Source of the DNA: an uncultured Methanosarcinales archaeon
GTDB taxonomy: Archaea > Nanobdellota > Nanobdellia > Woesearchaeales > CAZXRI01
Length of the DNA: 24,208 bases
Direction: 5' to 3'
Assembly: GCA_964642765.1 (NCBI GenBank)
Contig: CAZXRI010000002.1
Span: 1-24,208, forward strand
The position numbers and the translations under genes were made by a program. The notes under the pieces were generated by a model that made no database searches, was not told where the DNA came from, and worked only from the letters and a program-made list of their open reading frames with translations. Shown here piece by piece: positions 1 to 14,400 of this stretch. The stretch's first letter is position 1. Each line of letters begins with the position of its first letter.

Positions 1-475
1 ATGTTATGAATTTAGGGTCATTTAAGCTGTTCTCATTATTCACTTTATGATACGCTTTAATTGACACATCAGATAACATAGTTAAAGTATCATGAGAAAC
101 AACAATATCTAATTCCTTCAAAGATGCACACGCCACAATCAAAAAATCATTACGAACATCCTTAAAAGAAAGATTTCCGCCATATCCTCTGTAAGCATTA
201 TAATATTCTTCTGCAATGGTTTCTGTAACTTTACCTATTTTGATATTATGATTCTCCTTATAGATAAATTTGTCATATATTTGTAACAGTAATATTTTTG
301 CTGACCTATTGCCAAGCCTTATCCTTGTAGGCGTATCTCTTAATTCATCCCTGATAATAGGATTTCCATAGATTATTAATTCTTTCTTAGAGAACTGTTC
401 CTCTATTTTTTTTAAGGAGTTTATCTCTAAGATTAATTCTCCATATACACTTGTATCAAACATTACTCGTTTCAT
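1..475 (-). CDS. PIN-domain (VapC-like) protein, 3' end beyond window edge; paralog of 1447..1968
   Basis: Manual translation from ATG 475: MKRVMFDTSVYGELILE...IIYGNPIIRDELRD...NDFLIVACASLKELDIVVSHD..., open to base 1. It shares MKRV-DT, IIYGN-IIR-ELRD and NDFLIVACAS with the 1447..1968 protein. Absent from the ORF track, presumably because no stop lies in the window. Confidence 0.85.
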   Translation of the reverse strand, partial: MKRVMFDTSVYGELILEINSLKKIEEQFSKKELIIYGNPIIRDELRDTPTRIRLGNRSAKILLLQIYDKFIYKENHNIKIGKVTETIAEEYYNAYRGYGGNLSFKDVRNDFLIVACASLKELDIVVSHDTLTMLSDVSIKAYHKVNNENSLNDPKFIT

Positions 476-561
476 TTAACCACCACAAAACTATCCATAA
501 CCATAATTATCAAAAGCATCATCAAAATCCATTCAGTTGTCTCCTTATCCATCCTAATCAT
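472..561 (-). CDS. 29-aa leader ORF starting inside repeat R1 (MIRMDKETTEWILMMLLIIMVMDSFVVVK), stop overlaps the PIN start (ATGA)
   Basis: Manual translation. The start lies downstream of the repeat's AGGTGG SD and the stop is coupled to the next gene. No evidence of translation. Confidence 0.3.
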   Translation of the reverse strand: MIRMDKETTEWILMMLLIIMVMDSFVVVK

Positions 562-586
562 TCTCCACCTGCGAAATGTTTAAATA
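548..586 (-). repeat. Cassette repeat R1 (type A)
   Basis: + strand tccatcctaatcattctccacctgcgaaatgtttaaata; 37/39 identical to R3. Confidence 0.95.
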
Positions 587-632
587 GTTTTCATTAAATA
601 TAATATATTTATTAAATACACAAGAGGGAAAA

Positions 633-875
633 ATGTCAAAAAATGTAAATGTAACATTATCTGTACCAACAGAGCTAAAAAAAGGAATGGACTCCCTGCC
701 AGAAATAAATTGGTCTGAGGTAATGAGGCAGGTATTATCCGAGAAAGTACAAAGACTTGCATTATTGCGGAAGATAGACGAATCAACAGCTGGCTCAAAA
801 CTCGATGAGAAAGATATCGAAATAATCTCAGAGAAAATTAAAGAAGGAATAGCAAAAAGGCACGGGCTGAAATAG
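633..875 (+). CDS. Ribbon-helix-helix-type antitoxin (VapB-like)
   Basis: N-terminal NVTLSVPTELKKGM...INWSEVMRQ beta-helix-helix pattern, 80 aa, stop abuts the PIN start. Confidence 0.75.
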   Translation: MSKNVNVTLSVPTELKKGMDSLPEINWSEVMRQVLSEKVQRLALLRKIDESTAGSKLDEKDIEIISEKIKEGIAKRHGLK

Positions 876-1280
876 ATGAGATTAGTCATAGATGCAAATC
901 CTCTCATTGCAGGATTCTTGAGGGATTCAACTTCACGAAAAATAATCTTCTCAAATGAGATTATCCTTTTTTCCCCAGACTGGTTAAGAGATGAATTTGA
1001 TAGAAATGAAACTGAACTAATGAAAAGATTTCCTACCCCTGAAAAATTTTCAGAAACTAAATCCGCATTATTTAGATTTGTAAATATTATTCCGTCTACA
1101 GAATATTCCTCATGTCTTAAAGAAGCATTATCTCTTGTAAAACATGATAAAGATGCTCCGTATTTTGCTCTTGCGTTATATCTTGGAATCCCTATCTGGT
1201 CAGAGGAGAAATCATTTAAGTTACAGTCTAAAGTAATGATATACTCTACATCTGAATTGATAAGATTGCTTTCATTGTGA
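876..1280 (+). CDS. PIN-domain toxin (VapC-like)
   Basis: RLVIDAN, DEF, DKDAPYFALA, IWSEEK acidic PIN motifs; 134 aa; directly follows the RHH gene. Confidence 0.85.
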   Translation: MRLVIDANPLIAGFLRDSTSRKIIFSNEIILFSPDWLRDEFDRNETELMKRFPTPEKFSETKSALFRFVNIIPSTEYSSCLKEALSLVKHDKDAPYFALALYLGIPIWSEEKSFKLQSKVMIYSTSELIRLLSL

Positions 1281-1295
1281 TTTATTATTTTATTA

Positions 1296-1341
1296 TCCAT
1301 CCTCATCATCCACCTTCAAAACATTTAAATATAAAGCTTGC
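1296..1341 (-). repeat. Cassette repeat R2 (type B)
   Basis: ccatcctcatcatccaccttcaaaacatttaaatataaagcttgc (1297-1341) is identical over 45 nt to 3159-3203. Confidence 0.95.
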
Positions 1342-1353
1342 CTTATTGCAAAT

Positions 1354-1470
1354 ATGACACAAAATAAATCTGAAAACTTTGATAAACTCTGGGAAAGGAT
1401 TGAATCCATAAGGAAAGACCCAGAATCCATGAAAGCATTAGACGAATTAATCAAGATTCACACCTCTTAA
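1354..1470 (+). CDS. 38-aa small protein (MTQNKSENFDKLWERIESIRKDPESMKALDELIKIHTS), convergent with and overlapping the PIN gene 3' end
   Basis: Manual translation. TATAAA at 1330 lies 24 nt before the ATG, consistent with a leaderless archaeal promoter. Confidence 0.55.
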   Translation: MTQNKSENFDKLWERIESIRKDPESMKALDELIKIHTS

Positions 1471-1968
1471 CAATTTTTTAAATTTTTCAAATCTAATAAA
1501 CTCAGGCATTTTATAACGATAAAGCCCATTTACAGATTTATATGAATTAATTGAAATCTCAGAAAGCATGGTTTTTCTGTCTTCACTAACCACTAAATCA
1601 AGATTATTTACAGATGCACATGCCACAATCAAAAAATCATTCAGAATCTCATTTCTTGGAATCTTACCGCCCAAAGCCCTAAATGCAATGGAGTATTTAT
1701 CAGCAAGAAATTCAATATCAACATTCAGCATGTAATGATGCTTTCCTACTAATAAATCATATAGTGATAATAGTGTTATTCTTAGATTTTGAATATTCTC
1801 CCCTGAATAGTTTAGCTTATACTTAGGAATATCCCGCAGTTCTCTCCTTATGATATCATTACCGTAAATAATTAAATCTCCTGCAACAATTGACTTTTTT
1901 AAGCTATCCCTGTCTATCTCTTTCAAAACAAATTCATAAATATTTGTATCTAAAATTACTCTTTTCAT
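1447..1968 (-). CDS. PIN-domain protein
   Basis: VILDTNIY, RRELRD, NDFLIVACA, LVVSEDRK motifs; 173 aa. Confidence 0.85.
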   Translation of the reverse strand: MKRVILDTNIYEFVLKEIDRDSLKKSIVAGDLIIYGNDIIRRELRDIPKYKLNYSGENIQNLRITLLSLYDLLVGKHHYMLNVDIEFLADKYSIAFRALGGKIPRNEILNDFLIVACASVNNLDLVVSEDRKTMLSEISINSYKSVNGLYRYKMPEFIRFEKFKKLLRGVNLD

Positions 1969-1982
1969 ATTACTCCACTATC

Positions 1983-2032
1983 TCCATCCTAATCATCATC
2001 CACCTGCGAAATGTTTAAATATAAATGTTGCC
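1983..2032 (-). repeat. Cassette repeat R3 (type A), begins 9-aa leader MMIRMEIVE (1970..1999)
   Basis: tccatcctaatcatcatccacctgcgaaatgtttaaatataaatgttgcc; abuts the HEPN stop codon at 2033. Confidence 0.95.
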
Positions 2033-2509
2033 TCATTTTTGAATCACCGCATAAATATTCTTAAAAAACTTTTCAGCATTCCTTACAGATTCTTCTGACG
2101 GTTTTACATTTGCCTGAGGCAATCTATGATAAGTAAACTCTCCCCGCTTTTTCTTCTCCTGAGAGAATATCGCAAGCAACTCATCAGCCTTTACAATCAA
2201 AGACTTATAAATATTAAGAAGCTCATAATCCAGAATCCCAGTCTTTACAAGCCTTGCCTCAAACTCGTCTAATGTTTTCCTATGTTCATCAGGCGGATAA
2301 GTCTCAACTCCATGTTTAAGCAGAATAGACTTTGCACAATAAAAAATGCAATAATATGCATGAGAAATAACATGGGAATAAAATGTCATTTCCTTTGGAA
2401 TAAAAAGTTCCAGTTTAATTCTCTCCTCAGAAGATAGCATAAAACTTGCCTTAGCAAAAGTAATCTCATTCTCTGCCCTCTCAATATAAAGCTTAACCTT
2501 TGAATCCAT
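2033..2509 (-). CDS. HEPN-domain protein (partner of MNT)
   Basis: AYYCIFYCAKSIL, DEH and KRGEFTYH motifs; 158 aa; overlaps the upstream MNT gene by 17 nt. Confidence 0.85.
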   Translation of the reverse strand: MDSKVKLYIERAENEITFAKASFMLSSEERIKLELFIPKEMTFYSHVISHAYYCIFYCAKSILLKHGVETYPPDEHRKTLDEFEARLVKTGILDYELLNIYKSLIVKADELLAIFSQEKKKRGEFTYHRLPQANVKPSEESVRNAEKFFKNIYAVIQK

Positions 2510-3107
2510 GATAAACAGCCTCCTTTAAGACATTAAAATAAATCATATGATTAAAAGCCACGACGGAATTCCTGAATATCTGTTTTCCAAGATTTTCCTC
2601 TTTTGCAATCAACATCTCCTCGAACTCAGCAAGTGAAATATAATGGATATGCAAATCAGTCAATGATTTTAATTTTGCATTTTCAACAAGAGGCAGGAGT
2701 CTCTTTTTATCTGAATCTGTTCCGATCAAAAAGCAAATATCAATGTCAGAATCTGCTCTTTGCTTTCCTGATGCAAAAGAGCCAAAAAGTATTAAGCAAT
2801 AATTCTGGCAAAAGTTTAGCTTGTTTATTATTGCTTTGTCTATCTTTAAATTGTTATATCTAACAACATCTACATAAGATAAGTAATTTATTGTATCTAT
2901 CTCATCAAGATTGAGCTTATAAAAATTTACTCCGCCAATTGTTTTTTTGAGGATGATTTTTTTCTCATTTAGTACTTCCAAAAATCTAAACAACCATGCC
3001 CTTGACAAACCCCTGATTGATTTAGTTAGATAAGAAAGTGTAAACTCCTCGAGAATATTTCTTCTTAAAACTTCCATAATCCTTATATGTGTTTTTGTTA
3101 GTATCAT
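2493..3107 (-). CDS. Minimal nucleotidyltransferase with probable N-terminal HTH (MNT antitoxin)
   Basis: LFGSFASGKQRADSDIDI (GS-x10-DxD) motif; N-terminal helix-turn-helix-like segment. Confidence 0.9.
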   Translation of the reverse strand: MILTKTHIRIMEVLRRNILEEFTLSYLTKSIRGLSRAWLFRFLEVLNEKKIILKKTIGGVNFYKLNLDEIDTINYLSYVDVVRYNNLKIDKAIINKLNFCQNYCLILFGSFASGKQRADSDIDICFLIGTDSDKKRLLPLVENAKLKSLTDLHIHYISLAEFEEMLIAKEENLGKQIFRNSVVAFNHMIYFNVLKEAVYHGFKG

Positions 3108-3158
3108 TTTTGATATTGAATAGTATTTATCTTGATATTCTTTGGTTTTAGTAATTCA

Positions 3159-3203
3159 CCATCCTCATCATCCACCTTCAAAACATTTAAATATAAAGCT
3201 TGC
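3159..3203 (-). repeat. Cassette repeat R4 (type B), begins 7-aa leader MMRMVNY (3148..3171)
   Basis: 45/45 identity with R2. Confidence 0.95.
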
Positions 3204-3216
3204 TTAAATGGTAATT

Positions 3217-3369
3217 ATGCCTCAAAAAACAAAAGACATAAACGACATAAACCCTGCAGATTATAATGACCCTGTTGAGTTAGCCAGAGATATAAAAAAA
3301 TTAATGCACACAGATTTTCTGGAGCAATATTCAAGCCTCAAAAAATCCATGAAAGCTAAATCTCATTAG
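3217..3369 (+). CDS. 50-aa small protein (MPQKTKDINDINPADYNDPVELARDIKKLMHTDFLEQYSSLKKSMKAKSH), convergent with and overlapping the PIN gene 3' end
   Basis: Manual translation. TATAAA at 3192 lies 25 nt before this ATG, nearly the same spacing as for 1354..1470. An alternative in-frame ATG is at 3208. Confidence 0.55.
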   Translation: MPQKTKDINDINPADYNDPVELARDIKKLMHTDFLEQYSSLKKSMKAKSH

Positions 3370-3847
3370 GCGACATTATTCTTATCTCGGATAGTCCATT
3401 CCTCTTAAGCACCTCGTTAATTTTTTTCTCCATATTCTTCAAGTGTTTCCTGTTATATGAAATAACATAATCCAAATCCTGAATGCTAGCAATTAAAATT
3501 ATTAGTATGTCTTCCTCTTTTATTCCTTGTGATTTAAATTCTTCTTCTATCTCATCAAAAGAGATTTTCTTAATATTCAGTCCTGCAATAATCTCAATCT
3601 TATCAATAAATTTCGTTGTTGCGTCCTTATAAAAATCCAAAATTTTATCTCTTAATTCCCTGAATTTCCATTTTCGCAGCAATATCTCAAAATTGGATGG
3701 AGTAATAATTTCAAATTCTCCCTTATTTGCTCTCTCTATAAATGATAGGCAATATTCTTTGCGCAAATCATTAGATGGAAAATAGGCAACTGTAATTACA
3801 TCTAAATCAACCATGATTCTTTTTTTGTTATCTTTAATTTGCATCAT
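3356..3847 (-). CDS. PIN-like domain protein starting inside repeat R5
   Basis: RIMVDLDVI, EEDILIILIA, DYVISYNRKHL fit the PIN pattern; 163 aa. Confidence 0.7.
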   Translation of the reverse strand: MMQIKDNKKRIMVDLDVITVAYFPSNDLRKEYCLSFIERANKGEFEIITPSNFEILLRKWKFRELRDKILDFYKDATTKFIDKIEIIAGLNIKKISFDEIEEEFKSQGIKEEDILIILIASIQDLDYVISYNRKHLKNMEKKINEVLKRNGLSEIRIMSPNEI

Positions 3848-3868
3848 CCACCTGCGAAATGTTTAAAT
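3842..3868 (-). repeat. Cassette repeat R5 (type A)
   Basis: catcatccacctgcgaaatgtttaaat, 27/27 identical to the matching part of R3; lies 5 nt from the YhcG stop. Confidence 0.95.
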
Positions 3869-3873
3869 CTCAT

Positions 3874-4845
3874 TCACTTCAACCTTTTAATTATCTCTTT
3901 CTCATCTGGCAATTTAACCTTATAATCAGACACAAAAATCTCTTTCCTCAAATCACCAAGAGCATAACGGACAGTTTCCTCATCTTTTGATTTACATATA
4001 ATTAAACCTATTGGCAACTTCTGTCCCTTTAGCCATCTATTTTCTTTGTACCAATTCAAGTAAGAATACATCTGGCTTACATGAGAATGCTTAAAGGATT
4101 CAATCTTGACCTCAACCAGAACATAACACATTAATCCAGCATGAAACAACTCCAAATCAACCTTATCATAATCCCCAGAAATTAACACAGGAACCTCTCT
4201 TCTACCGACAAAAAAATCCTGTCCTAACTCTCTTATGAAATCTTCAAACTTATTCAACAATTCATCTTTCAAATCCTTTTCCTTGAAATTATTTCTCAAC
4301 TCCAAAAAATCAAAATTATAAGTGCTTTTGAACACATCCTGAGGCATTAATTGTGTCGCAATTGGCGACAATTTTATTATTTCCCCTTTCTTAAATTTCT
4401 TTGCTGCATTATTTCTTATTTGTTCTCTAAGCTGGTTCCTTCCAAAACTATTCTTAATGGAGAGCATCTCATAAATTTTTCTCTCTTCATTGCTCTCAAC
4501 AGCAAGCAACTCGATATAATGCGACCAGCTTAATTCTGTCGCAACCTGCGACAATATTGGATATGTCTTATAAAATTGCAGCATTCTATATAATAATCTC
4601 TCCTCAAACCCTAAATCATTAGACAATTTAACAATTAGCCTATTCCCATAATCAGCCCTTTCTTTAAATCTGAATTCTTCCCTCGCAATTCGCTCGCCTA
4701 TTTGCCAATAAGTTTGAACCCTTAAATTATCAACTGATTTATATGCCTGTAACTTTGCTTTTTCCAGAAGGAATTTAATCTCATTTAAGACGATATTGTA
4801 GTTATCTAATCCTTCCTTTTTAATTATTTCTTCCATCCTCATCAT
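3874..4845 (-). CDS. YhcG/DUF1016-family PD-(D/E)XK nuclease-like protein
   Basis: YWQIGERI, YG..LI.KLS.DL, LSWSHYIELL, FIRELGQDFFVGR, VDL...LVEVK, SQMYSY; 323 aa; starts within repeat R6. Confidence 0.9.
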   Translation of the reverse strand: MMRMEEIIKKEGLDNYNIVLNEIKFLLEKAKLQAYKSVDNLRVQTYWQIGERIAREEFRFKERADYGNRLIVKLSNDLGFEERLLYRMLQFYKTYPILSQVATELSWSHYIELLAVESNEERKIYEMLSIKNSFGRNQLREQIRNNAAKKFKKGEIIKLSPIATQLMPQDVFKSTYNFDFLELRNNFKEKDLKDELLNKFEDFIRELGQDFFVGRREVPVLISGDYDKVDLELFHAGLMCYVLVEVKIESFKHSHVSQMYSYLNWYKENRWLKGQKLPIGLIICKSKDEETVRYALGDLRKEIFVSDYKVKLPDEKEIIKRLK

Positions 4846-4858
4846 CCACCTGCGAAAT
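4832..4858 (-). repeat. Cassette repeat R6 (type A, truncated; array boundary)
   Basis: tccatcctcatcatccacctgcgaaat, then diverges; lacks the gtttaaat segment. Confidence 0.9.
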
Positions 4859-4867
4859 CTTCAACCA

Positions 4868-4960
4868 TCATTCTATTATCTCCAGTATTAAGCTGTCTTT
4901 CCCTCTTGGAAATCTTCTTGCGTGGTGTTCTTCGTCTGAGTTTAGGTCAAGCTTTTCCAT
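4868..4960 (-). CDS. 30-aa hypothetical ORF between the 1116-aa gene and the array
   Basis: MEKLDLNSDEEHHARRFPRGKDSLILEIIE with GAGGAC upstream of ATG 4960; the ORF track extends it to 5065. Confidence 0.3.
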   Translation of the reverse strand: MEKLDLNSDEEHHARRFPRGKDSLILEIIE

Positions 4961-4991: not shown

Positions 4992-7900
4992 TTACGCTGT
5001 GCCTGCATTAGCTGCGGCTCCTGTATCTGCTGCCTGTGCATTACCCTGATTAGATTGCCCCGCACTTCCTGAATTATCAGATGGCTCTTTGTTGAGTATT
5101 TCGCAAAAATCAGGCTGTCCGTTTATTGTTGTGGATTTGGCTTTCAAGCTGTCCTTGACATTTACCCATGTATCAACTGTTTGTGCAAGTGTTTCAAGAG
5201 TAAGCATTGTGCTGTAAGGAATGCACGAGCCGTGCCATCTTACAGCTTGTGTCCCTAAAGAAGAATCTTTATCACAAACATCCCTAAATCCCTTTCTTCC
5301 AAGAACCCATACTGTTGCAAAAGGATTTTCAAATGCGTTTCCAAGAGCCTTAAATGGTTGTATCAGGATATCAGTTAATCCGCCAATTGTTGAGCCTGTA
5401 AAATATTTGCATTTATTCAAGCGGAATTCCCTGTCGCAATCTGTTTTTGTTTGCAATCCTGTTGGTATAACATCCCGATAGCAAACAGCTTTCTCGCATT
5501 TCATCTGACGGTAATTCTGGATATTGGCAGCCATTCCAGGCAAGCAAGCACATCCAATAGCAAATACCCAATTCTTTTTTGCAAATTCAAGGTTTGATTG
5601 CTGAAGTCCGGCTAATACTGTTCCTCGAGTAATTTTAACATCATTTCCATCAGCATCAGTTGTTGTTCCAAGAGATTTTCCAAGAATAGTATTTTCCCCA
5701 AGCTGCCCTCCTGCTCCAAGTAAAGTATCCCTATACAAATCACATAGAGGAGCCTTGCCCACACCAACTGTTTTGCCGAGAATCGGAATTTTTCCTTCCT
5801 TGCCTTGACATGATACAAATCCGCACATAGTATCAAAATAATTACTGATTTTTTCATAGCTGTTAGATGTTGTTTTAAATGCCTGAGTAAGAGAAGCCTC
5901 TCCACTTCCACAAAAGAAACCTGCTGCACCAGCTGAAGCATCATTGCAATCTGCAAAAATAGCTCCGACATAGGAGATTACATTTATTGTCGCTTTATAG
6001 CCTGACCTTGTCCTGCATATTCCTTGTGCAAGATTTGCAACCTTGTCAATCCCATTAGCAATCTTATCCAAGCCTCCATTCACATCATCCTTAATATTAT
6101 CAATCTCATCCTGAAGATTTTCTTCGTCTGTTGATTTATCCCATCTTACAAAAACATTTGCCCTGAGAAGCTGCTGCTCTGGTGTTTTATAGACAACATT
6201 TCCGCATTTAACATTATACTGGACAAAGCATGCGTTTGTTGCACCGATAGCAAGAGATTCTTTTCCTGCGATATTTTGTGGAGTAATATGGAATTGTGCA
6301 AACCCTGAATATGAATTGCCGTTCTGCGAGAAGAAAATCTCCTTGTTTGGAAATTCATCACATTTCAGGACTGGGTTTACAGCCTCTGCCCCTTCTGAAC
6401 ATTTTCCCAAGTCATTAAGCTGGAAATAAATCGGAACAGTGTAATCAACCTGAGCCATTGAAATAAAAATAGATGAGTCAATCGGTGTAATGTAATCCTC
6501 GAGGATAACCATCTCAAAAAGCTGTCCGTCTTTTGGCGAGTCTTTGGTCTGCTTGACAGAAACCTTTTCTTCTTTCTCAACTTTGTTGCCAGCACCATCT
6601 ATAAATGTGAATTTTATTTTTGCATTATCAATTACTCCTGTCCTGTCAATCTTTGGAGTTTCTGCTGTGCATAGCCAGATGTTTTCCTGCTCATCAAACT
6701 CACATGGTATCTCAATTTTATTCCCGCCAATTATCACAGACGAGAAATCAGCATAAGCAGAAAGGATATTTTTCTCTTCAAGAACAGCGCTTATCTGGAT
6801 AATGTCTCCTGTTTTCAGAACATCTCCTATTCCAGAATCACTTTTCCCGAGGATAGAAATATCGTCTTTAATCTCGGGCTTTGTCTTATCGAGGATAACA
6901 GCAAGCGTTACAGCATCCTTTACAGCATTTCCGAGAATATCCTTTGAATCAGTGCCGATGCTTGCCTCATAAGTATCCTCGAGGAGATCTCCTATGTCTG
7001 CATTATTCCACTTGCATGTGAATGTTTTATCACCTGTGCATTCGCTTGCTGAGATTGTTTTTGAGCCAATGTGTAAGATAATATCAGAAGGGCTTATTCC
7101 AGTTACATCCTCGATTGTTGCTGCCAGATTTACACTTGACGAAACATAAATATTCCCATCTGCCGATGGTGTTCCTGATTGGATGGATTTTATTACTGGA
7201 CCAGCATCATCCTTTCCAAGTGCAATGTCAATCTGCGAGTTTGCTGCATCAACAGCATTCCCAAATATATCCTTGACAGAGAGGAGAACTTTTTTTGTTC
7301 CTTCTGCCTGAGGCATTAAGTCAAATTCCCAAATTAAAGTCAGGATGTTTCCGTTTCTTGAATTTGTCGTCGGAGAAACCAATTTAAGCGAAGGATTCAC
7401 CTCTGATAAGTCTGCTGTTATGCTCTGCAAATCTATATCTGCTCCGTCTATTGAAACTGAAAATTTAGCAGGAACTAATTTTCCCGGGAGTATATTTGAA
7501 ATTACCTTATTATTCCTGTCAGTCAGCTTTGCAGTTTCCTTCTTGATTGCCGGAGGAGTTTTGTCAACAGTAAATGTTTTGCATACTTCAGACGAGGATT
7601 TTTCAAATTTATCCTTTGCTTTTGCACAAACAGTTATATCTCCTGTTTCTGCATGAGAATAAGAAACTGATTTTCCTGTTATCGCACAACTGCTGTCAGC
7701 AAGACATTCTTCATTGCATTCAGCTATCATTTTATTATCAGCAGATTTTCCGAGGAAGAATTGCACAAGCGTTGTGCCAGAGCAGGTATTTTTATCTCCG
7801 TTATAACCATAATCAGCAACATCAAAATTAAGATATACATTTCCATTCGGAGATATTTTTTTTCCTTCAAAATCAGTTATGCCACCTATTTCAAATAGCG

Positions 7901-8342
7901 TAATCTGAGGCGCACGGTTATCAACAGTAAGAGAAACATCTTTTCTGTCAACAACATAACCAGCATCATCAACAAGGAGAATTGAGAATTTAGGAGTCTT
8001 TGTCGAGAATCTTTTTTTGCCTGATTCAGGATATTTCAATGTGCATGTCTGCAAGTCTGTTCCAGAAACGCAGGCAAAGAATCCAGATGGGATTGATGCA
8101 GAATCGTATAATATAATATTCTTTGTCAAATCAGCATCTGTGTCAAGCTTTGCTGCTATCTCGAATGTAATCTGATCATTGTCGCTGATTAGGTTTTCAA
8201 ATCCATTTGAGCCAGTAACTTTCACGCTGCCTATCCTTCCTGTTGGGACAGCAGAAACAAATGATATTGACGAGAAAGAAGAAAGCAGCATGATAAATAC
8301 AAGGAAAACTCCTCTATATTTAGCAGGCATCTTTTTCATCAT
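4992..8342 (-). CDS. Large exported protein: signal peptide, Ig-like beta repeats, Cys-rich C-terminal region (1116 aa)
   Basis: N-terminal KYR + hydrophobic stretch + VSA; recurrent VDxTPP/D..GN motifs typical of Ig-like surface domains; many Cys. Confidence 0.85.
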   Translation of the reverse strand: MMKKMPAKYRGVFLVFIMLLSSFSSISFVSAVPTGRIGSVKVTGSNGFENLISDNDQITFEIAAKLDTDADLTKNIILYDSASIPSGFFACVSGTDLQTCTLKYPESGKKRFSTKTPKFSILLVDDAGYVVDRKDVSLTVDNRAPQITLFEIGGITDFEGKKISPNGNVYLNFDVADYGYNGDKNTCSGTTLVQFFLGKSADNKMIAECNEECLADSSCAITGKSVSYSHAETGDITVCAKAKDKFEKSSSEVCKTFTVDKTPPAIKKETAKLTDRNNKVISNILPGKLVPAKFSVSIDGADIDLQSITADLSEVNPSLKLVSPTTNSRNGNILTLIWEFDLMPQAEGTKKVLLSVKDIFGNAVDAANSQIDIALGKDDAGPVIKSIQSGTPSADGNIYVSSSVNLAATIEDVTGISPSDIILHIGSKTISASECTGDKTFTCKWNNADIGDLLEDTYEASIGTDSKDILGNAVKDAVTLAVILDKTKPEIKDDISILGKSDSGIGDVLKTGDIIQISAVLEEKNILSAYADFSSVIIGGNKIEIPCEFDEQENIWLCTAETPKIDRTGVIDNAKIKFTFIDGAGNKVEKEEKVSVKQTKDSPKDGQLFEMVILEDYITPIDSSIFISMAQVDYTVPIYFQLNDLGKCSEGAEAVNPVLKCDEFPNKEIFFSQNGNSYSGFAQFHITPQNIAGKESLAIGATNACFVQYNVKCGNVVYKTPEQQLLRANVFVRWDKSTDEENLQDEIDNIKDDVNGGLDKIANGIDKVANLAQGICRTRSGYKATINVISYVGAIFADCNDASAGAAGFFCGSGEASLTQAFKTTSNSYEKISNYFDTMCGFVSCQGKEGKIPILGKTVGVGKAPLCDLYRDTLLGAGGQLGENTILGKSLGTTTDADGNDVKITRGTVLAGLQQSNLEFAKKNWVFAIGCACLPGMAANIQNYRQMKCEKAVCYRDVIPTGLQTKTDCDREFRLNKCKYFTGSTIGGLTDILIQPFKALGNAFENPFATVWVLGRKGFRDVCDKDSSLGTQAVRWHGSCIPYSTMLTLETLAQTVDTWVNVKDSLKAKSTTINGQPDFCEILNKEPSDNSGSAGQSNQGNAQAADTGAAANAGTA

Positions 8343-8500
8343 ATATCCTTCAGCTCCCTCTGGATTACTTCTAAATCATAGAGCTTCTGCTCCATCAATT
8401 CACGGGCAAGCATGGATTTTTTCTTGCCCAATTTTTTTGAAACTCTCTCAAGAAGGTCATCAATTTCCTTGCTTACTGTTATTCTGATTTGGATGCTCAT
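8339..8500 (-). CDS. 53-aa ribbon-helix-helix (CopG-like) regulator, translationally coupled to the 1116-aa gene
   Basis: MSIQIRITVSKEIDDLLERVSKKLGKKKSMLARELMEQKLYDLEVIQRELKDI; GAGGT SD; TGA overlaps the next ATG (ATGA). Below the ORF-track size cutoff. Confidence 0.8.
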   Translation of the reverse strand: MSIQIRITVSKEIDDLLERVSKKLGKKKSMLARELMEQKLYDLEVIQRELKDI

Positions 8501-8559: not shown

Positions 8560-8890
8560 CTTGATTGTTAATTAGATAGACTTAATTAAGACTTTAGATA
8601 GCCTATTTAGTGTTAAAGTAAGTTATGGATATAGAGATAAACTAAGTTAGTCATTATTAGTCCTTAGAATATACTAAATTTAGTATTTATTAGGTATATT
8701 TTAAGTTAAAATCTTTTTCTGTCCCTTAGATTATTATTGAAAAGGCATTGTTTAGACTATAAAAAGCATATATTAATACTTAATTAGTACTTTAAAAATC
8801 TGTAATATATATAGTGGTAGATTTATACATTATTTAGACTAGATTATGCTTTTTGCATTTTATACTCACACACTGAAATAGAATTAGAAA
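8560..8890. other. Very AT-rich divergent intergenic region with 13 TTAG motifs on + strand and a 16-bp palindrome
   Basis: TTAG at 8572, 8594, 8607, 8647, 8657, 8664, 8680, 8690, 8726, 8752, 8784, 8834, 8884 versus 2 CTAA; ATACTAAATTTAGTAT at 8671-8686. Confidence 0.7.
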
Positions 8891-8892
8891 TA

Positions 8893-8912
8893 TTTATATA
8901 TGTATATATACA
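8893..8912 (+). promoter_or_regulatory. vapBC TATA box with adjacent palindromic candidate operator
   Basis: TTTATATA (8893-8900) immediately followed by the perfect palindrome TGTATATATACA (8901-8912). Confidence 0.55.
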
Positions 8913-8925
8913 AACACATATAAAC

Positions 8926-9090
8926 ATGACCAAAATAATCTCGCTTTCAGACAAAGCCTATGAAATCCTGAAAAACCAAAAGCAGAAAAAGGAATCATTT
9001 ACAGATGTAATTCTAAGATTATCACAGGAACAAAAATCCTCTTCGATAATTGAATTTGCAGGCATCCTGAATGAGAGGCAGAAAAAATGA
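8926..9090 (+). CDS. vapB: Archaeal VapB-type antitoxin (54 aa)
   Basis: MTKIISLSDKAYEILKNQKQKKESFTDVILRL matches the T-I-x-SD-x-AY...ESF(S/T)DVI-x-RL pattern; ATGA overlap with vapC. Missing from the ORF track. Confidence 0.85.
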   Translation: MTKIISLSDKAYEILKNQKQKKESFTDVILRLSQEQKSSSIIEFAGILNERQKK

Positions 9091-9501: not shown

Positions 9502-11457
9502 ATGTATCAGAACAACAGAAAATCACAGGTTACAATATTCATTATCCTCGGAGTAATCATATTAATTGCAATTGGGCTGTTCGTATATTATAGGGCTGTC
9601 CTTATACCAAAAGAAAAAACAGTTATCGAGGAAATTGCTCCTGTGAAAGACTATATTGACTCGTGCATTTCAATGATAGGAAAAGATGGATTGGACACGC
9701 TTGGATTAAACGGAGGATTTATCTATTTCCCTCCTGAGATTGATTCAAAGCCATACAGCTATCTTGCAACATCTCCTATAAAAGAGCTGAAAAATCCTTA
9801 TTGGTGGTATGATGGAATTAACAACACACCGACGCTGGAATTCATGCGGGAAGAGCTTTCAAAATATGCAAATGATAACATAAAAGAATGCCTTGGAGAC
9901 TTTGATGCATTAAATGATGATTTTGAGATAAAAGAGATGGGAGAGCTTTCTGCTGTTGCAAAAATAAATGAAAATGATGTTACATTCGACGTGAAATATC
10001 CTATTCAGATAATCAGCAGGCAGAACGCAACAAAAACAAGGATGGATAAATTCAAGATAACCCTTCCTGTCAGGTTGAAAAAAATGCACGAGCTTGCAAA
10101 TGCAATCATGGGCTCGCAATACAGGGAAGCATTCATAGAGAAAAAGGCAATGGACTTGATTGTTCTCGACAATGACATTCCAACAACAGATGTTGAAATA
10201 AGCTGCAAGAAAAAGACTTGGAATGTTGAAGAGGTAAGAAATAAACTAAAGAGACTTCTTAGCGTAAACATCCCTTACATAAGAGTCGCAAACACAAACT
10301 ATGACACAACAATTTTCGTGCCAAATCCCGACGAAAAAGATGAGACTTACAAAAATTCATATTATAATTACCATTACATCTGGTCAGCAACAGATGTGAA
10401 ATATCCTGAAACTCATGTTGGATTTACCTATGATCCAAAATGGGAAACATCATTCAGGGCTTTTCCAAGCGACGGAAGAACAATGCAATCCAATGGTCAG
10501 AAAGGAACAGAAATGTTGTCATCTTTATGCTTGCATATATGGCATTTCACTTATGATGTTGGCTTTCCTGTAAAAGTAACAATATCCGACGAGAAAACAT
10601 CGGGCCATGATGAGTACACATTTATCTTTGCATTCAAGGCATCAATAAACCACAACAAGCCAGACAGGATAAACCGCTTATCGCAAGGATACACATCTCG
10701 GGACATAATCAGGGATGAGGAGTTCTGCTCTGACACAAGCAATGACATAACAATTATTCCAGAAGATTCCGTCGAAAAAATCTCTGTTTCAGATGTGAAT
10801 GTAACTTTTATCTGCGGCGGATATGAATGTGATTTGGGAACTGTCGAGAGGGATTATAATTCAGGAGGCGAGGCATTCATGACAAAAAAAGTGCCTTACT
10901 GTGTTGCAGGCTACATCAAAACAAAAGGAGAGAATTACATTGATGCAGAAATTCCAGTGCAGACAGACAGGGAAAGAAGCTATACTGTTTCATTAACTCC
11001 GATAAGGGCTTTCCTGAATTACAAGGTTGTAAAGCATTCATTCAACAGCAACAATATCCAGAGTGCTAATTCAAATAATAATATTCCAGCTGGCACTTAT
11101 TCCGTCGGAGAAGCAGAGGAGTTTGCCTCAAATGAAAGGGCAACAATCACAGTAAGCAAAAAGGACGAGGACTTTGAGTCTTACGGAGTTTATCCTGACA
11201 ACATGTTCCCGATAAAAATCCTCGACAAGAAAGATGATGTATATGATGTCTCTGTTTATCTCCTGAGAGATGAGGAAATTGTCGGTGGCTATGTCGGAGA
11301 ATTAAATGTGCAAGCCAGCGAACTGATAAACTCCGACGAGATAATATTCCATGTTATCGAATTAAATCCGCTTCCAAAAGATGAGACAGAAAAATTCCTG
11401 TTCATAGGCGGGCTTCCGACATATTCAAAAAATGCTCCGAGCCCTGAAATAAAATAA
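9502..11457 (+). CDS. 651-aa surface protein with class III (pilin-like) signal peptide
   Basis: NRKSQ|VTIFIILGVIILIAIGLFVYY; the remainder is hydrophilic, beta-rich and contains several Cys. Confidence 0.8.
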   Translation: MYQNNRKSQVTIFIILGVIILIAIGLFVYYRAVLIPKEKTVIEEIAPVKDYIDSCISMIGKDGLDTLGLNGGFIYFPPEIDSKPYSYLATSPIKELKNPYWWYDGINNTPTLEFMREELSKYANDNIKECLGDFDALNDDFEIKEMGELSAVAKINENDVTFDVKYPIQIISRQNATKTRMDKFKITLPVRLKKMHELANAIMGSQYREAFIEKKAMDLIVLDNDIPTTDVEISCKKKTWNVEEVRNKLKRLLSVNIPYIRVANTNYDTTIFVPNPDEKDETYKNSYYNYHYIWSATDVKYPETHVGFTYDPKWETSFRAFPSDGRTMQSNGQKGTEMLSSLCLHIWHFTYDVGFPVKVTISDEKTSGHDEYTFIFAFKASINHNKPDRINRLSQGYTSRDIIRDEEFCSDTSNDITIIPEDSVEKISVSDVNVTFICGGYECDLGTVERDYNSGGEAFMTKKVPYCVAGYIKTKGENYIDAEIPVQTDRERSYTVSLTPIRAFLNYKVVKHSFNSNNIQSANSNNNIPAGTYSVGEAEEFASNERATITVSKKDEDFESYGVYPDNMFPIKILDKKDDVYDVSVYLLRDEEIVGGYVGELNVQASELINSDEIIFHVIELNPLPKDETEKFLFIGGLPTYSKNAPSPEIK

Positions 11458-11479: not shown

Positions 11480-14400
11480 ATGTCCAAACAAAACAAGGCA
11501 AAAATGATTCCAGCAACAAAAATAATTCATGTAATCCTAATAGTTATCCTCATAGCGAACATAGTTCATGCTATCGACGATATTCGGATTGATATAGAAA
11601 TCCCTCAGACACACAATTCAGAAAAGCTTGATGTTTCAGGAACAACTGAAAAGTCTGCATCTGTTGTTGTGCTTGTAAATGGGATGAAACAGCAGGAAAT
11701 TTCACCTGAGAACAATCCAGACGGTAAATTCACACTAAACCTTATCCTTGCAAAAGACAGCACAAACAAAATAAAAATTACAGCAAGCAAAGAAGATAAA
11801 TCAGCAGAGAAAGAATTTGATGTAACAGTTGATACCAATTCTCCAACTCTTGTTATTGAGCCAATCAAGGATATACTTATTGAGAAAAACCTCGTCGTAA
11901 AAGGAAAAGTCAGCAAGGAAGTTACTGTTGATATTTTCCTCGGAAGAGGCAAGCTGGATAATGTCAAGCCTGCAAAAGTTTCAGGATTAAAAGTTGCTGA
12001 TTCAGAGAATAATTTAATGGACTTTGTTCACATTGAATGGAACAAGAACAGTGAAGATGACATAGACAAGTATATTATATATAGGGAAGATGTTGGAATT
12101 CTCGACACAAATCCGTCTGGAACTGTTTTTGTCAGGGACTTGAAAGTTAATTCAGACACAGAATATGTTTATCGCGTTGCTGCTCTTGATGCATCAGGAA
12201 ATGTTGGAGACAAGTCAGAGCCGCTGAAAATTAAGACTCTTGCAGGAGACAGGAAAAATATTCCAAAGCCAATTGGCCAGAAAGTATCCCAAGAGATTGA
12301 CAGGGCTGTGAAAAGCGTTAAGACAACCAATACTTTCGAGGAGGAAATTCCTCTTTCTTCAGACGGTGATTATCATATCACAATTATTGCAACAGACAAT
12401 GCAGGAAACAGGGCAATTTACAAAAAGAATTTTCTCCTTGACACAAAAGGGCCAAAGATAGAATCAATAACTCCGAGAAGCGGCTCATTTATTTATGAAT
12501 ATGCAGCAAACAGCGTCAAGATAGAAGGAGTTACAAGCCCGAATGTTGAAGTTAAGCTTTTCCTTGACAAAAATGCAGTCGAGAAATTACTTTCCACAAC
12601 ATTGACAGAGCAGCAGGCACTTTTGTATGACAAGGATGTTTACCAGAAACTAAAGGAATCCTATTCAACAAAATCCGACGATAAAGGTAGGTTTGTTTTC
12701 AACAAGGTAAATCTGCTGAATTATGTAAGCGCAAATTTTGCTCCAACTGAGGTTGATCCAAAGGATTTCAATAGAAACAATGATGATACGCAAGGCATTT
12801 CAAGGCAGAATTCTGTTGAGATTGTTATTTTGGCAGCAGATAAATTCGGCAGGTTTGACCAGAAAAGATTACATTACAGATTAGGAACATGCTGGTCAGG
12901 AAACCTTACATGGGATGTGCGTGTTCTCAGCGAATTCCAATCACCAACTTTCTTAAGCACAGAAAGGCTTGCTGAAGGAACAGAAACAATTTACTTTTAT
13001 CTTAATTTCAGCTATCTGGGAGAGTCTTCAGACGCTGGTGCAAGAATCCAAAGCCTGCAGCTCGCAAACGCATGCGATGACTTTGCCAAAGACAATCCGC
13101 GATACAACATAAGCTGCTCAATCATGAAAAATAACTGCGTTACAAAATCAAGCTCAAATAAAAGAACATGGTATGTTGCATGCCCTCTTGCTGGTGTTGA
13201 CGGAATGGACAGATGGCTGAAAGATGACTGGAAAAGCTTTGCAAAGGCTGTTCACAATGAAATGAGTTTCCCATTCAGGATAAGGATTGGATATACAGAA
13301 AGAAAGCAATCTCAGGATGCAAACGATAATACAATTGACTCAAGACAAGTCCAGACAACCTGCGACGAGGTTTCGTATGTTGTTGACAGCTCAAAGATTG
13401 ATCCAAGAAGTGTTCTGCCTGATTTCCTTCTCAGGGATTCAATCAAATGGCTCAACTCCTCGATAAAGGCAATTGACAAGGCACAGGGATATGTAAGGAC
13501 TGTCCTGAACTTCGTCGGAATAGGATGTGTTGGCTCTATATTATTCAAGTTCGGCACAACTGTTTGGAGAGAAACAACATGCAATCTCGAGGGAGTAAGA
13601 GATAGGGCTGATGCAACAATTCCAAAAAACTTGAAATGCCCTCTAACAAAAGAAGATAGAAACAAGCTTACAAATCAGGAGCTTCTTGAAAGATGTCCAA
13701 GCTGCTCAGCACAATGGGATTTTGAGTCAAAACTTTATGGTGTTTATCGAGGATTGTGCGACAGGGTTTTCTGCCACACTGCTCCTGCAAAATGGACAGA
13801 GAGCAAACCTGACGACGAATTAGTAAAAAAACAGTTTGAGATAAAAACACAATGCGGCGAAAAGGATGAAAGCCTGCAAGGACAGCCATTATTAGAGAGA
13901 AGCTGCTCAGCATGGCTCGACGAGGATTTAGACAGAGAAAAAATATCTGCACAAGGAGCAGGAGATACATGCTATCAGGCGCAGATAATCAGGGAAGATG
14001 ACGCAGCAAAATCAAAATATGGAATGGTTTTCATAAAATCAAGTGAGCAGGCATTCAGGGAATCTGGTGTTTACAAGTTCACAGCAGTTTCAAAAGTTTC
14101 AGAGAACCAAAAATCAGCCAAATCCTCAGTCGAGAAATACTATACAGATGACTTGTTTGTCAAGGAATTCAAAGGAAGGTTTATGACAGCGAGAACAGAC
14201 ATGTGCGCTGATGTGTGCAATAAAAGAGGATATACAAATTCCACATGCGGTGATTCTAATGATGCTGTCCAGCTTGAAAATCCGACTGTAGTAAGCAACA
14301 GGCAGGAAGCATATACTAAATTATTTGGAAATGGATTTAATTCTGCCGCAAAATACAAAACACTAAGAGTCGGCTATACAGCAGATTGCTTGTTTGGAAA

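What the first reader, a model, noticed from the sequence alone, without database searches (positions are those of the whole stretch)
1..4860. Repeat-delimited cassette array of unrelated toxin/defence genes in an archaeon
Seen: six same-orientation repeats (TCCACC core at 564, 1309, 1999, 3171, 3847, 4845; spacing 745, 690, 1172, 676, 998 nt). Minus-strand consensus is ATTTAAA(C/T)(A/G)TTT(C/T)G(C/A)AGGTGG-ATGATG(AGG/ATTAGG)ATGG. They separate non-homologous cargo: YhcG; PIN+small ORF; MNT-HEPN; PIN+small ORF; inverted RHH-PIN; PIN. Two repeats lie 0-5 nt from the preceding stop codon (R3, R5) and two overlap the next start codon (R5, R6). Known: integrons stockpile TA and defence cassettes between attC sites. 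Inference: this is a cassette-capture system using a short non-palindromic site that doubles as an expression signal. I see no attC-like hairpin and no recombinase in the window, so the mechanism may differ from integrons.
Basis: partly seen in the sequence, partly recalled or inferred. Interest (0 to 1): 0.88.

Follow-up and report, generated by a model that had tools for sequence, protein, structure and literature searches.

The report
Promoter repeats between stacked toxin cassettes
In a tiny groundwater (DPANN) archaeon, unrelated toxin-antitoxin and defence genes are stacked between two giant surface-protein genes. Each is preceded by a copy of one ~40-base two-way promoter and start signal, and relatives carry no cassette or one at the same spot, so the spot gains genes without any integron parts.

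Summary
The six repeats are real and occur nowhere else in the 1.35-Mb assembly. A 99.6% identical 89.7-kb scaffold from another sample shows two more copies left of the window.

The repeat is a compact expression module. Its TTTAAA box lies 29-32 nt before the third ATG on the gene strand. It lies 30-31 nt before a small convergent ORF on the other strand, behind a canonical BRE. These are the genome's usual leaderless spacings.

Cargo differs between cassettes:
- three anciently diverged VapC-type PIN genes, each with a convergent small partner
- two YhcG nucleases
- MNT-HEPN
- an inverted RHH-PIN pair

Relatives show gain and loss at the same locus. One (38% identical anchor protein) has no cassette. 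One (61%) has a single cassette between two repeat copies, and there the repeat is 95% identical while neighbouring DNA is about 70%.

It is not an integron. There is no hairpin, no attC core and no linked recombinase, and the repeat edges are ragged.

Best reading: a cassette-accumulating hot spot where recombination happens at a promoter-bearing junction repeat. Whether cassettes move is inferred, not shown. This scan noted similar arrays before in other DPANN genomes.

The parts
544..588 (-). Repeat R1. On the gene strand it starts a 29-codon membrane-peptide ORF followed by PIN_A. Its other face carries BRE CGAAA and the TATA box and points at RHH-PIN_2.
   Evidence: spacing statistics
1297..1341 (-). 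Repeat R2 (subtype TGTTTTGAAGG). Its reverse face is the leaderless promoter of the 38-aa ORF. Its gene-strand face points into the antisense of PIN_2/RHH.
   Evidence: 89% identical to R4 over 62-69 nt
1984..2031 (-). Repeat R3, before a 9-codon mini-ORF and PIN_B. It is 95% identical over 43 nt to the copy in relative L301.
3159..3203 (-). Repeat R4 (same subtype as R2), before MNT-HEPN. Its reverse face is the promoter of the 50/53-aa ORF.
3842..3868 (-). Repeat R5, truncated after ATGATG. It lies before PIN_C and starts 6 nt after the YhcG stop.
4833..4858 (-). Repeat R6, which lacks the TATA box. It supplies GGTGG and the start codons of YhcG1.
2..475 (-). PIN_A (VapC-like). It is cut by the contig start and is 173 aa in full in L253.
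472..561 (-). 29-codon hydrophobic leader ORF. It starts in R1, and its stop overlaps the PIN_A start.
   Evidence: read; analogous leader peptides occur in relatives
633..1280 (+). Inverted cassette: RHH antitoxin (633-875) and PIN_2 toxin (876-1280).
   Evidence: PF26688, PF10130
1354..1470 (+). 38-aa ORF convergent with PIN_B and overlapping it. It is the predicted binding partner (antitoxin) of PIN_B.
   Evidence: homologues; score 0.81, best control 0.00
1447..1968 (-). PIN_B, a VapC-fold toxin.
2033..3107 (-). MNT nucleotidyltransferase (2493-3107) and HEPN (2033-2509) pair.
3208..3369 (+). Small ORF convergent with PIN_C. The likely leaderless start is at 3217.
3356..3847 (-). PIN_C, a distant member of the same PIN family.
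3874..4845 (-). YhcG/DUF1016 PD-(D/E)XK nuclease. It matches the PADLOC candidate defence family PDC-S02.
4868..4960 (-). Conserved 30-codon ORF between the anchor gene and the first repeat.
4992..8342 (-). 1116-aa secreted anchor protein. It marks the same locus across the order.

Best explanation
The array is a cassette-accumulating hot spot between two large surface-protein genes that lie next to each other in a distant relative. Each junction carries one copy of a ~40-nt module. The module is a palindromic TATA box flanked by a canonical BRE on one side, and by GGTGG plus three in-frame ATGs on the other. It can therefore start leaderless transcripts in both directions, and it offers a ribosome-binding site on read-through transcripts. 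Cassettes are added, lost and replaced by recombination at or next to these copies. The recombination would be homologous between copies, or homology-facilitated illegitimate joining, and each event leaves or reuses a copy. This reading explains three things: copies stay near-identical while cargo is unrelated or anciently diverged, the edges of the copies are ragged, and no integrase is needed. Shown here: the repeats, their promoter geometry, the unrelated and ancient cargo, and the differences in locus content between relatives. Inferred: that the repeats are where recombination happens, and that the module drives expression.
For: The motif is locus-specific. There are eight copies in independent assemblies. 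Genome-wide, TATA hexamers peak 30 nt before ATG, BRE at -37 and SD-like words at -14 to -8. In the repeat, TTTAAA is 29 or 32 nt before the third ATG and 30-31 nt before the ATG of the convergent small ORF, with CGAAA or CAAAA in the BRE position. In a tree, the three PIN genes each group with PINs of other families rather than with each other, yet their repeats are 89-98% identical. Locus series: L337 has anchor and terminal gene 9 nt apart with no cassette. L301 has one inverted RHH-PIN_2 cassette between two repeat copies. The window's organism has seven cassettes. In L301 the repeat is 95% identical over 43 nt, while flanking genes are 68-75% identical in DNA and other intergenic DNA does not align. 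The RHH-PIN_2 cargo between the repeats is only 31-35% identical in protein, against 57-61% for flanking orthologues, which points to replacement. In G400, G243, G250 and G203, other cassettes follow the same anchor gene between genome-specific repeats that copy a promoter and signal-peptide start. The array's G+C is 30-34% against 36-43% in most of the rest of the window.
Against: No movement was seen. Eight contigs from several samples share one order. Laying Logan contigs gave no convincing new junction. The empty site in L337 has no copy of the repeat, so a simple target duplication from that state is not shown. Strong conservation of the repeat could reflect a bound regulator rather than recombination. 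No transcript data were available.
Confidence: 0.55

Rival explanations
1. This is a true site-specific cassette system, functionally analogous to an integron. A recombinase encoded elsewhere recognises the conserved ~38-nt core and inserts and excises circular cassettes.
For: There are 15 invariant and 10 nearly invariant columns across ten copies in two lineages. Conservation is 95% against about 70% in the flanks. Repeat subtypes combine like half-sites. The assembly has three tyrosine-recombinase genes, on C230 and C20.
Against: No recombinase lies within 10 kb on either side in L253 or L301. The homology edges vary by about 20-25 nt on each side. There is no hairpin. Related cargo in other genomes sits between unrelated, genome-specific repeats. 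No circles or alternative junctions were seen.
Confidence: 0.2
2. The repeat is only a shared regulatory element, a promoter plus operator that puts all the toxin and defence units under one regulator. It is kept alike by selection, and the array grew by ordinary unrelated insertions.
For: The promoter geometry fits both directions. The conserved block beyond BRE and TATA lies where archaeal repressors and activators usually bind (established knowledge). The array itself encodes an RHH DNA-binding protein.
Against: In L301, copy c1 stands between the 3' ends of two convergent genes, where nothing needs a promoter. R2 likewise points into the antisense of PIN_2. Non-transcribed spacer bases are also identical between copies (R2 and R4). 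R6 has lost the TATA box but keeps the rest.
Confidence: 0.2
3. The array is an assembly artefact: strain variants or paralogous loci joined at a shared repeat.
For: The window starts at a contig end inside the array. Some short contigs of other samples end at or next to repeats (L254 and L256 at R1, L258 at R4). The genome has 248 contigs.
Against: An 89.7-kb scaffold and a 12-kb contig from other samples span six to eight repeats in the same order at 99.6-99.9% identity. Six further contigs agree.
Confidence: 0.03

Closest known systems
Insertion with long target duplication of restriction-modification units (Furuta, Abe and Kobayashi 2010, PMC2853133; read)
   Same: A selfish or defence gene unit without mobility genes sits between direct repeats longer than 30 bp that are unique in the genome. 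The insert has lower G+C. The case is recognised by comparison with a relative that lacks the insert.
   Different: Here the units are serially stacked (seven), the cargo is toxin-antitoxin or candidate defence genes in an archaeon, and the repeat is a working-looking two-way promoter and start module. The available empty site (L337) has no single copy of the repeat. That paper found no archaeal case.
Sedentary chromosomal integrons and CALINs, including archaeal ones (Ghaly et al. 2022, PMC9668308; read)
   Same: It is a one-locus array of small cassettes, mostly in one orientation and rich in toxin-antitoxin genes, separated by a recurring sequence.
   Different: There is no attC fold or core, no IntI and no attI. 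The recurring sequence lies at the 5' end of each cassette and carries the promoter, whereas integron cassettes are mostly promoterless with attC at the 3' end. The repeat edges are ragged.
Cassette arrays in other DPANN genomes noted earlier in this scan (e1-2844516, e1-977575, e1-1250017, e1-2495414)
   Same: Toxin-antitoxin or nuclease cassettes are stacked beside a surface or membrane protein gene. They are separated by copies of that gene's start or end, with no integrase. I saw the same layout independently in G400, G243 and G250 at the locus syntenic to this one.
   Different: In this lineage the repeat has shrunk to about 40 nt of promoter plus the first 4-6 codons. Only R1 keeps a 29-codon peptide. 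The repeat is conserved across lineages far more than its surroundings.
Tandem accretion of integrase-less elements at att sites (CIME-type)
   Same: Elements are stacked head to tail between direct repeats. They could be mobilised in trans.
   Different: No att-type precise core and no cognate integrase were identified. The site is not a tRNA or other conserved gene end.

Membership tests
Integron / CALIN | attC sites: imperfect inverted repeats that fold as a single-strand hairpin, with R''/R' core GTTRRRY | tested here: not met
   Eight 71-nt windows over the repeats, both strands, folded as DNA gave z-scores of -0.37 to +0.89 against shuffles. No GTTRRRY occurs at the boundaries (read).
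Integron / CALIN | IntI tyrosine recombinase and attI next to the array | tested here: not met
   No PF00589 hit is on record among genes within 10 kb either side in L253 and L301. The only PF00589 matches in the assembly are on C230 and C20. The assembly is about 80% complete.
Integron / CALIN | Cassettes mostly promoterless, expressed from a common Pc | tested here: not met
   Seven of the eight junctions carry their own TATA box at the genome's usual distance from the start codon; R6 does not.
Insertion with long target duplication | Insert flanked by direct repeats longer than 30 bp that are otherwise unique in the genome, with no mobility gene inside | tested here: met
Insertion with long target duplication | A relative without the insert has one copy of the repeated sequence at the same place | tested here: inconclusive
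   L337 (anchor 37-38% identical) has no insert and no repeat; its two genes are 9 nt apart. L301 has one cassette and two copies. No genome with exactly one copy was found.
Archaeal BRE/TATA promoter with leaderless start | A BRE-like purine-rich word, two bases, then a TATA box starting about 30 nt before the start codon | tested here: met
   Genome-wide peaks are TATA at -30 and BRE at -37 (706 ORFs). On the reverse face of the repeat, CGAAA or CAAAA plus 2 nt plus TTTAAATA lies 30-31 nt before the small-ORF ATG. On the gene-strand face TTTAAA lies at -29/-32, without a clear BRE. Transcript starts were not measured.
VapC-type PIN toxin (cargo PIN_A/B/C) | PIN fold with conserved acidic residues | tested here: met
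   The model has pLDDT 91.7. The top 30 Foldseek PDB hits are nearly all VapC, FitB or other PIN proteins, with probability 1.0 and target TM 0.6-0.72. D7, E43, D71, D111 and D130 are invariant in 21 homologues. Sequence profiles alone fail.
Toxin-antitoxin pair (PIN_B with the convergent 38-aa ORF) | The small protein binds the toxin | tested here: inconclusive
   The predicted complex scores 0.81 against a best control of 0.00. That mark was reached by 55 of 80 solved complexes and 3 of 110 mismatched pairs. The contacts include residues around the invariant acidic sites. This is a prediction only.

The most novel reading that the evidence does not exclude
DPANN archaea of this order may keep an integrase-independent, or trans-acting, gene-capture locus behind a conserved giant surface-protein operon. 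There, every incoming toxin or defence cassette would be joined through a ~40-nt junction that is itself a two-way promoter and start-codon module, so each cassette is expression-ready on arrival. The 95% conservation of the junction across lineages would then mark a recognised recombination site, making this a functional analogue of an integron built on different parts.
Probability: 0.2. Interest if true: 0.8.

Novelty: new variant of a known kind. Interest (0 to 1): 0.6.

Why it matters
DPANN archaea have very small genomes and depend on hosts, and how they gain and shuffle defence genes is poorly known. A locus that stacks toxin-antitoxin and nuclease genes without integron parts would be a second, independent way to build cassette arrays. 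Here each cassette also has its own ready-made two-way promoter. The series of no cassette, one cassette and seven cassettes at one syntenic spot makes the question testable. The PIN toxin with a convergently encoded, overlapping small partner is also an unusual toxin-antitoxin layout that is widespread in this order.

Tried and rejected
- **Collection scans.** Only L141, from the same population, was useful. The viral collection had no match to the 26-nt pattern.
- **Exact-protein look-ups.** Look-ups for YhcG with two different starts found nothing. The word-index search with the 1216-aa protein found nothing. The exhaustive search then showed only C-terminal relatives, one of which led to the empty site.
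- **C/D-box guide RNA.** The idea that ATGATGA in the repeat is a C box was rejected. The only Rfam hit is sR35 at 17 bits against a gathering score of 60, at one copy only. No tRNA lies in the window.
- **Recent tandem duplication.** This was rejected for the PIN cassettes, because each groups with PINs of other families.
- **Repeat as a copy of the terminal gene's coding start.** This holds in G400 and G243 but could not be shown here. The R1 peptide does not resemble the N-terminus of the 1216-aa protein.
- **Restriction site.** The match of CACCTGC in the repeat to a type IIS restriction site is recalled from memory only, is absent from the second subtype, and was treated as coincidence.
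- **Reads.** Only assembler contigs at about 3-5x depth were available, so absence of junctions is weak evidence.
Full report
**Observation**

The six repeats exist at the stated places with the stated spacing. Read on the minus strand, which is the gene strand, each copy has this form: TATATTTAAA, (C/T)(A/G)TTT(C/T)G(C/A)A, GGTGG, ATGATG, an optional ATT, then AGGATGG.

In the whole assembly (248 contigs, 1.35 Mb, about 80% complete; the window is C2:1-24208) the long form occurs only here. The single extra 12-mer hit lies inside a gene on C29. Sixty genomes of the same order have no multi-copy match.

**The array is longer than the window and is not an artefact**

An exact-protein look-up with the MNT protein returned seven contigs from other samples. 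One is an 89.7-kb scaffold (L253) and one a 12-kb contig (L254). All are collinear with the window at 99.6-99.9%. L141 and L303 agree.

L253 continues past the window's left end. It shows the full PIN_A gene with its convergent 43-aa ORF. Then comes a seventh repeat before a second YhcG gene, and an eighth, degenerate repeat before a 1216-aa gene. The array is therefore bounded by two large secreted proteins (1116 aa and 1216 aa) that are unrelated to each other. The rest of the window holds ordinary chromosomal genes, such as rRNA methyltransferases.

**Cargo**

- YhcG/DUF1016, two copies, matching PADLOC candidate family PDC-S02
- MNT-HEPN
- RHH with PIN_2, inverted relative to the other cassettes
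- three genes of one further family that has no significant sequence-profile hit

A model of PIN_B built on 21 homologues has pLDDT 91.7. Its best structural matches are VapC and FitB toxins. Acidic residues D7, E43, D71, D111 and D130 are invariant.

Each of these PIN genes overlaps, tail to tail, a small ORF of 38-53 codons. These ORFs share a W..I...DPE..V...EFI pattern and recur beside PIN homologues in other genomes. The predicted PIN_B/38-aa complex scores 0.81 against a best control of 0.00. That mark was reached by 55 of 80 solved complexes and 3 of 110 mismatched pairs. This is a prediction and not proof.

**What the repeat is**

Across 706 long ORFs of this genome, TATA-like hexamers peak 30 nt before the ATG. 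BRE-plus-TATA words peak at -37, and SD-like words at -14 to -8. Many genes here are therefore leaderless.

In the repeat, the palindromic TTTAAA lies 29 nt (or 32 nt with the ATT insert) before the third ATG. Gene callers chose that ATG for both YhcG genes.

On the opposite strand the same box is preceded by CGAAA or CAAAA in the BRE position. It lies 30-31 nt before the ATG of the convergent small ORFs at R2, R4 and the seventh copy. At R1 the box faces the RHH-PIN_2 pair, which has its own SD.

GGTGG lies 14-17 nt before the third ATG and could serve read-through transcripts. R6 has lost the TATA box but keeps the rest. The repeat is thus a two-way promoter plus start module. This follows from sequence geometry; no transcripts were examined.

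**It is not an integron**

- The repeats do not fold (z between -0.37 and +0.89).
- There is no attC core.
- No tyrosine recombinase is recorded within 10 kb in L253 or L301.
- The three recombinase matches in the assembly lie on other contigs.
- Rfam and tRNA scans are empty.

**Comparison with relatives**

The 1116-aa protein is a good anchor for the locus. A relative with a 61% identical anchor (L301) has the same flanking genes. Between the anchor and the orthologue of the 1216-aa gene (57% identical) it has only one cassette. That cassette is an inverted RHH-PIN_2 pair.

The cassette is flanked by two repeat copies. The first copy is 95% identical to R3 over 43 nt. Flanking genes align at 68-75% and other intergenic DNA does not align at all. 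The second copy is the promoter region of the terminal gene.

The RHH-PIN_2 proteins of the two lineages are only 35% and 31% identical. The cargo between the conserved repeats has therefore been replaced, or it evolves far faster than its surroundings.

A more distant relative (L337) has an anchor 37-38% identical and a terminal gene 36-39% identical over its C-terminal 300-400 residues. There the two large genes are 9 nt apart, with no cassette and no repeat.

Further out in the order, genomes G400, G243, G203 and G250 again have arrays directly after the anchor homologue. The cargo is PIN/small-ORF modules, a YhcG, another PIN-like gene and unknowns. G266 has a similar array, with MNT-HEPN, on a contig that does not reach an anchor gene. 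In these genomes the separating repeats are genome-specific and are built of a promoter plus a signal-peptide-like ORF. In G400 and G243 that ORF copies the N-terminus of the next large gene.

The order of shared PIN types differs between G077 and this genome.

**Age of cargo against age of repeats**

In a maximum-likelihood tree of 44 PINs, each of the three PINs groups outside this genome:
- PIN_A groups with G077 and G203 (support 99/83 and 100/97).
- PIN_B groups with G250 and G266 (99/91).
- PIN_C groups with a G077 gene (100/100).

They are ancient paralogues or separate arrivals, not recent local duplicates. Yet their repeats are 89-98% identical to one another, including spacer bases that should not be transcribed.

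Alignment A1 shows 15 invariant and 10 nearly invariant columns in a ~38-nt core. The left and right limits of similarity differ from copy to copy by about 20-25 nt.

**Reading**

Together these facts fit a hot spot where cassettes are gained, lost and replaced by recombination at or beside the junction copies. The copies are kept alike by that recombination and by selection for expression.

The ragged edges and the genome-specific repeats around related cargo elsewhere argue against a cassette-borne, precisely cut site. A trans-acting site-specific enzyme and a pure operator role remain possible.

Movement itself was not observed. All population contigs share one order. Logan contigs of four runs, at about 3-5x depth, gave no convincing new joint. 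Some loose ends at repeat edges match nothing in this genome and may come from related arrays in the same samples.

**Comparison with what is known**

The nearest published pattern is insertion with long target duplication of restriction-modification units (PMC2853133). That pattern is bacterial, involves a single unit, and comes with a one-copy empty site, which I could not find here.

Archaeal integrons (PMC9668308) have canonical attC and IntI, which are absent here.

A full-text search found no paper that describes such arrays in DPANN archaea. Earlier follow-ups in this scan described similar arrays in other DPANN genomes. Within the scan, this is therefore a further member, with an unusually short repeat that is essentially only a promoter.

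Noticed in passing
window 554-1309 (-); L301:13505-14245 (+): An ORF that starts at the repeat's ATGs stays open through the whole antisense of the inverted RHH-PIN_2 cassette in both lineages (251 and 246 codons). The two cassettes are only 31-35% identical in protein. Resampling synonymous codons gives P(no stop) of 0.025 and 0.027. All 25 other usable PIN_2 homologues have 1-6 stops in that frame. Either selection keeps a repeat-initiated frame open or this is chance; it is unresolved.
   Followed up: partly
window 1354-1968, 3208-3847; L253:12610-13236: There is a toxin-antitoxin layout in which a VapC-fold PIN gene and a 38-53-codon partner are encoded tail to tail with overlapping 3' ends. 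PIN homologues occur in 43 of 401 genomes of the order, often in tandem. The predicted complex scores 0.81 against a best control of 0.00.
   Followed up: partly
window 1969-1986 (-) against L301:13445-13466 and window 4868-4890: The bases just after R3 end a 9-codon mini-ORF (...EIVE stop). They match the end of the conserved 25-30-codon ORF that follows the anchor gene (...LEIVE / ...LEIIE stop) at 15 of 17 positions. The PIN_B junction may derive from the anchor-proximal junction.
   Followed up: no
window 8339-8500 (-); L337:1465-1626: The 53-aa ORF just upstream of the anchor gene is 89% identical between this genome and L337, although the anchor proteins are only 37% identical. It is a strongly constrained small protein of unknown role.
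   Followed up: no
L291 (G077:C33) 8842-8990, 9894-9986, 10763-10824, 11723-11971: In another genome's PIN array the junctions are filled with tandem ~35-nt G+C-rich units (TGCACCTGATTTGG...GGGGTTTTCAT). This junction repeat differs in kind but shares a CAGGTG word with the repeat studied here.
   Followed up: no
G000:C230:474-1810: Two tyrosine-recombinase genes lie in tandem on a 1.8-kb contig. They are not linked to the array in the assembly.
   Followed up: no
window places 590, 1288, 1931-1968 (read-laying table 7): Contigs in several groundwater and soil runs match up to a repeat edge, or up to the first codons of PIN_B. They then continue with sequence found neither in this genome nor in any fetched locus. 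These may be related arrays with other neighbours in the same samples.
   Followed up: partly
L317, L320, L322, L331: Four fetched PIN_2 loci gave stop-free antisense runs over the whole locus in my script. This is probably masked sequence, and I left them out of the count.
   Followed up: no
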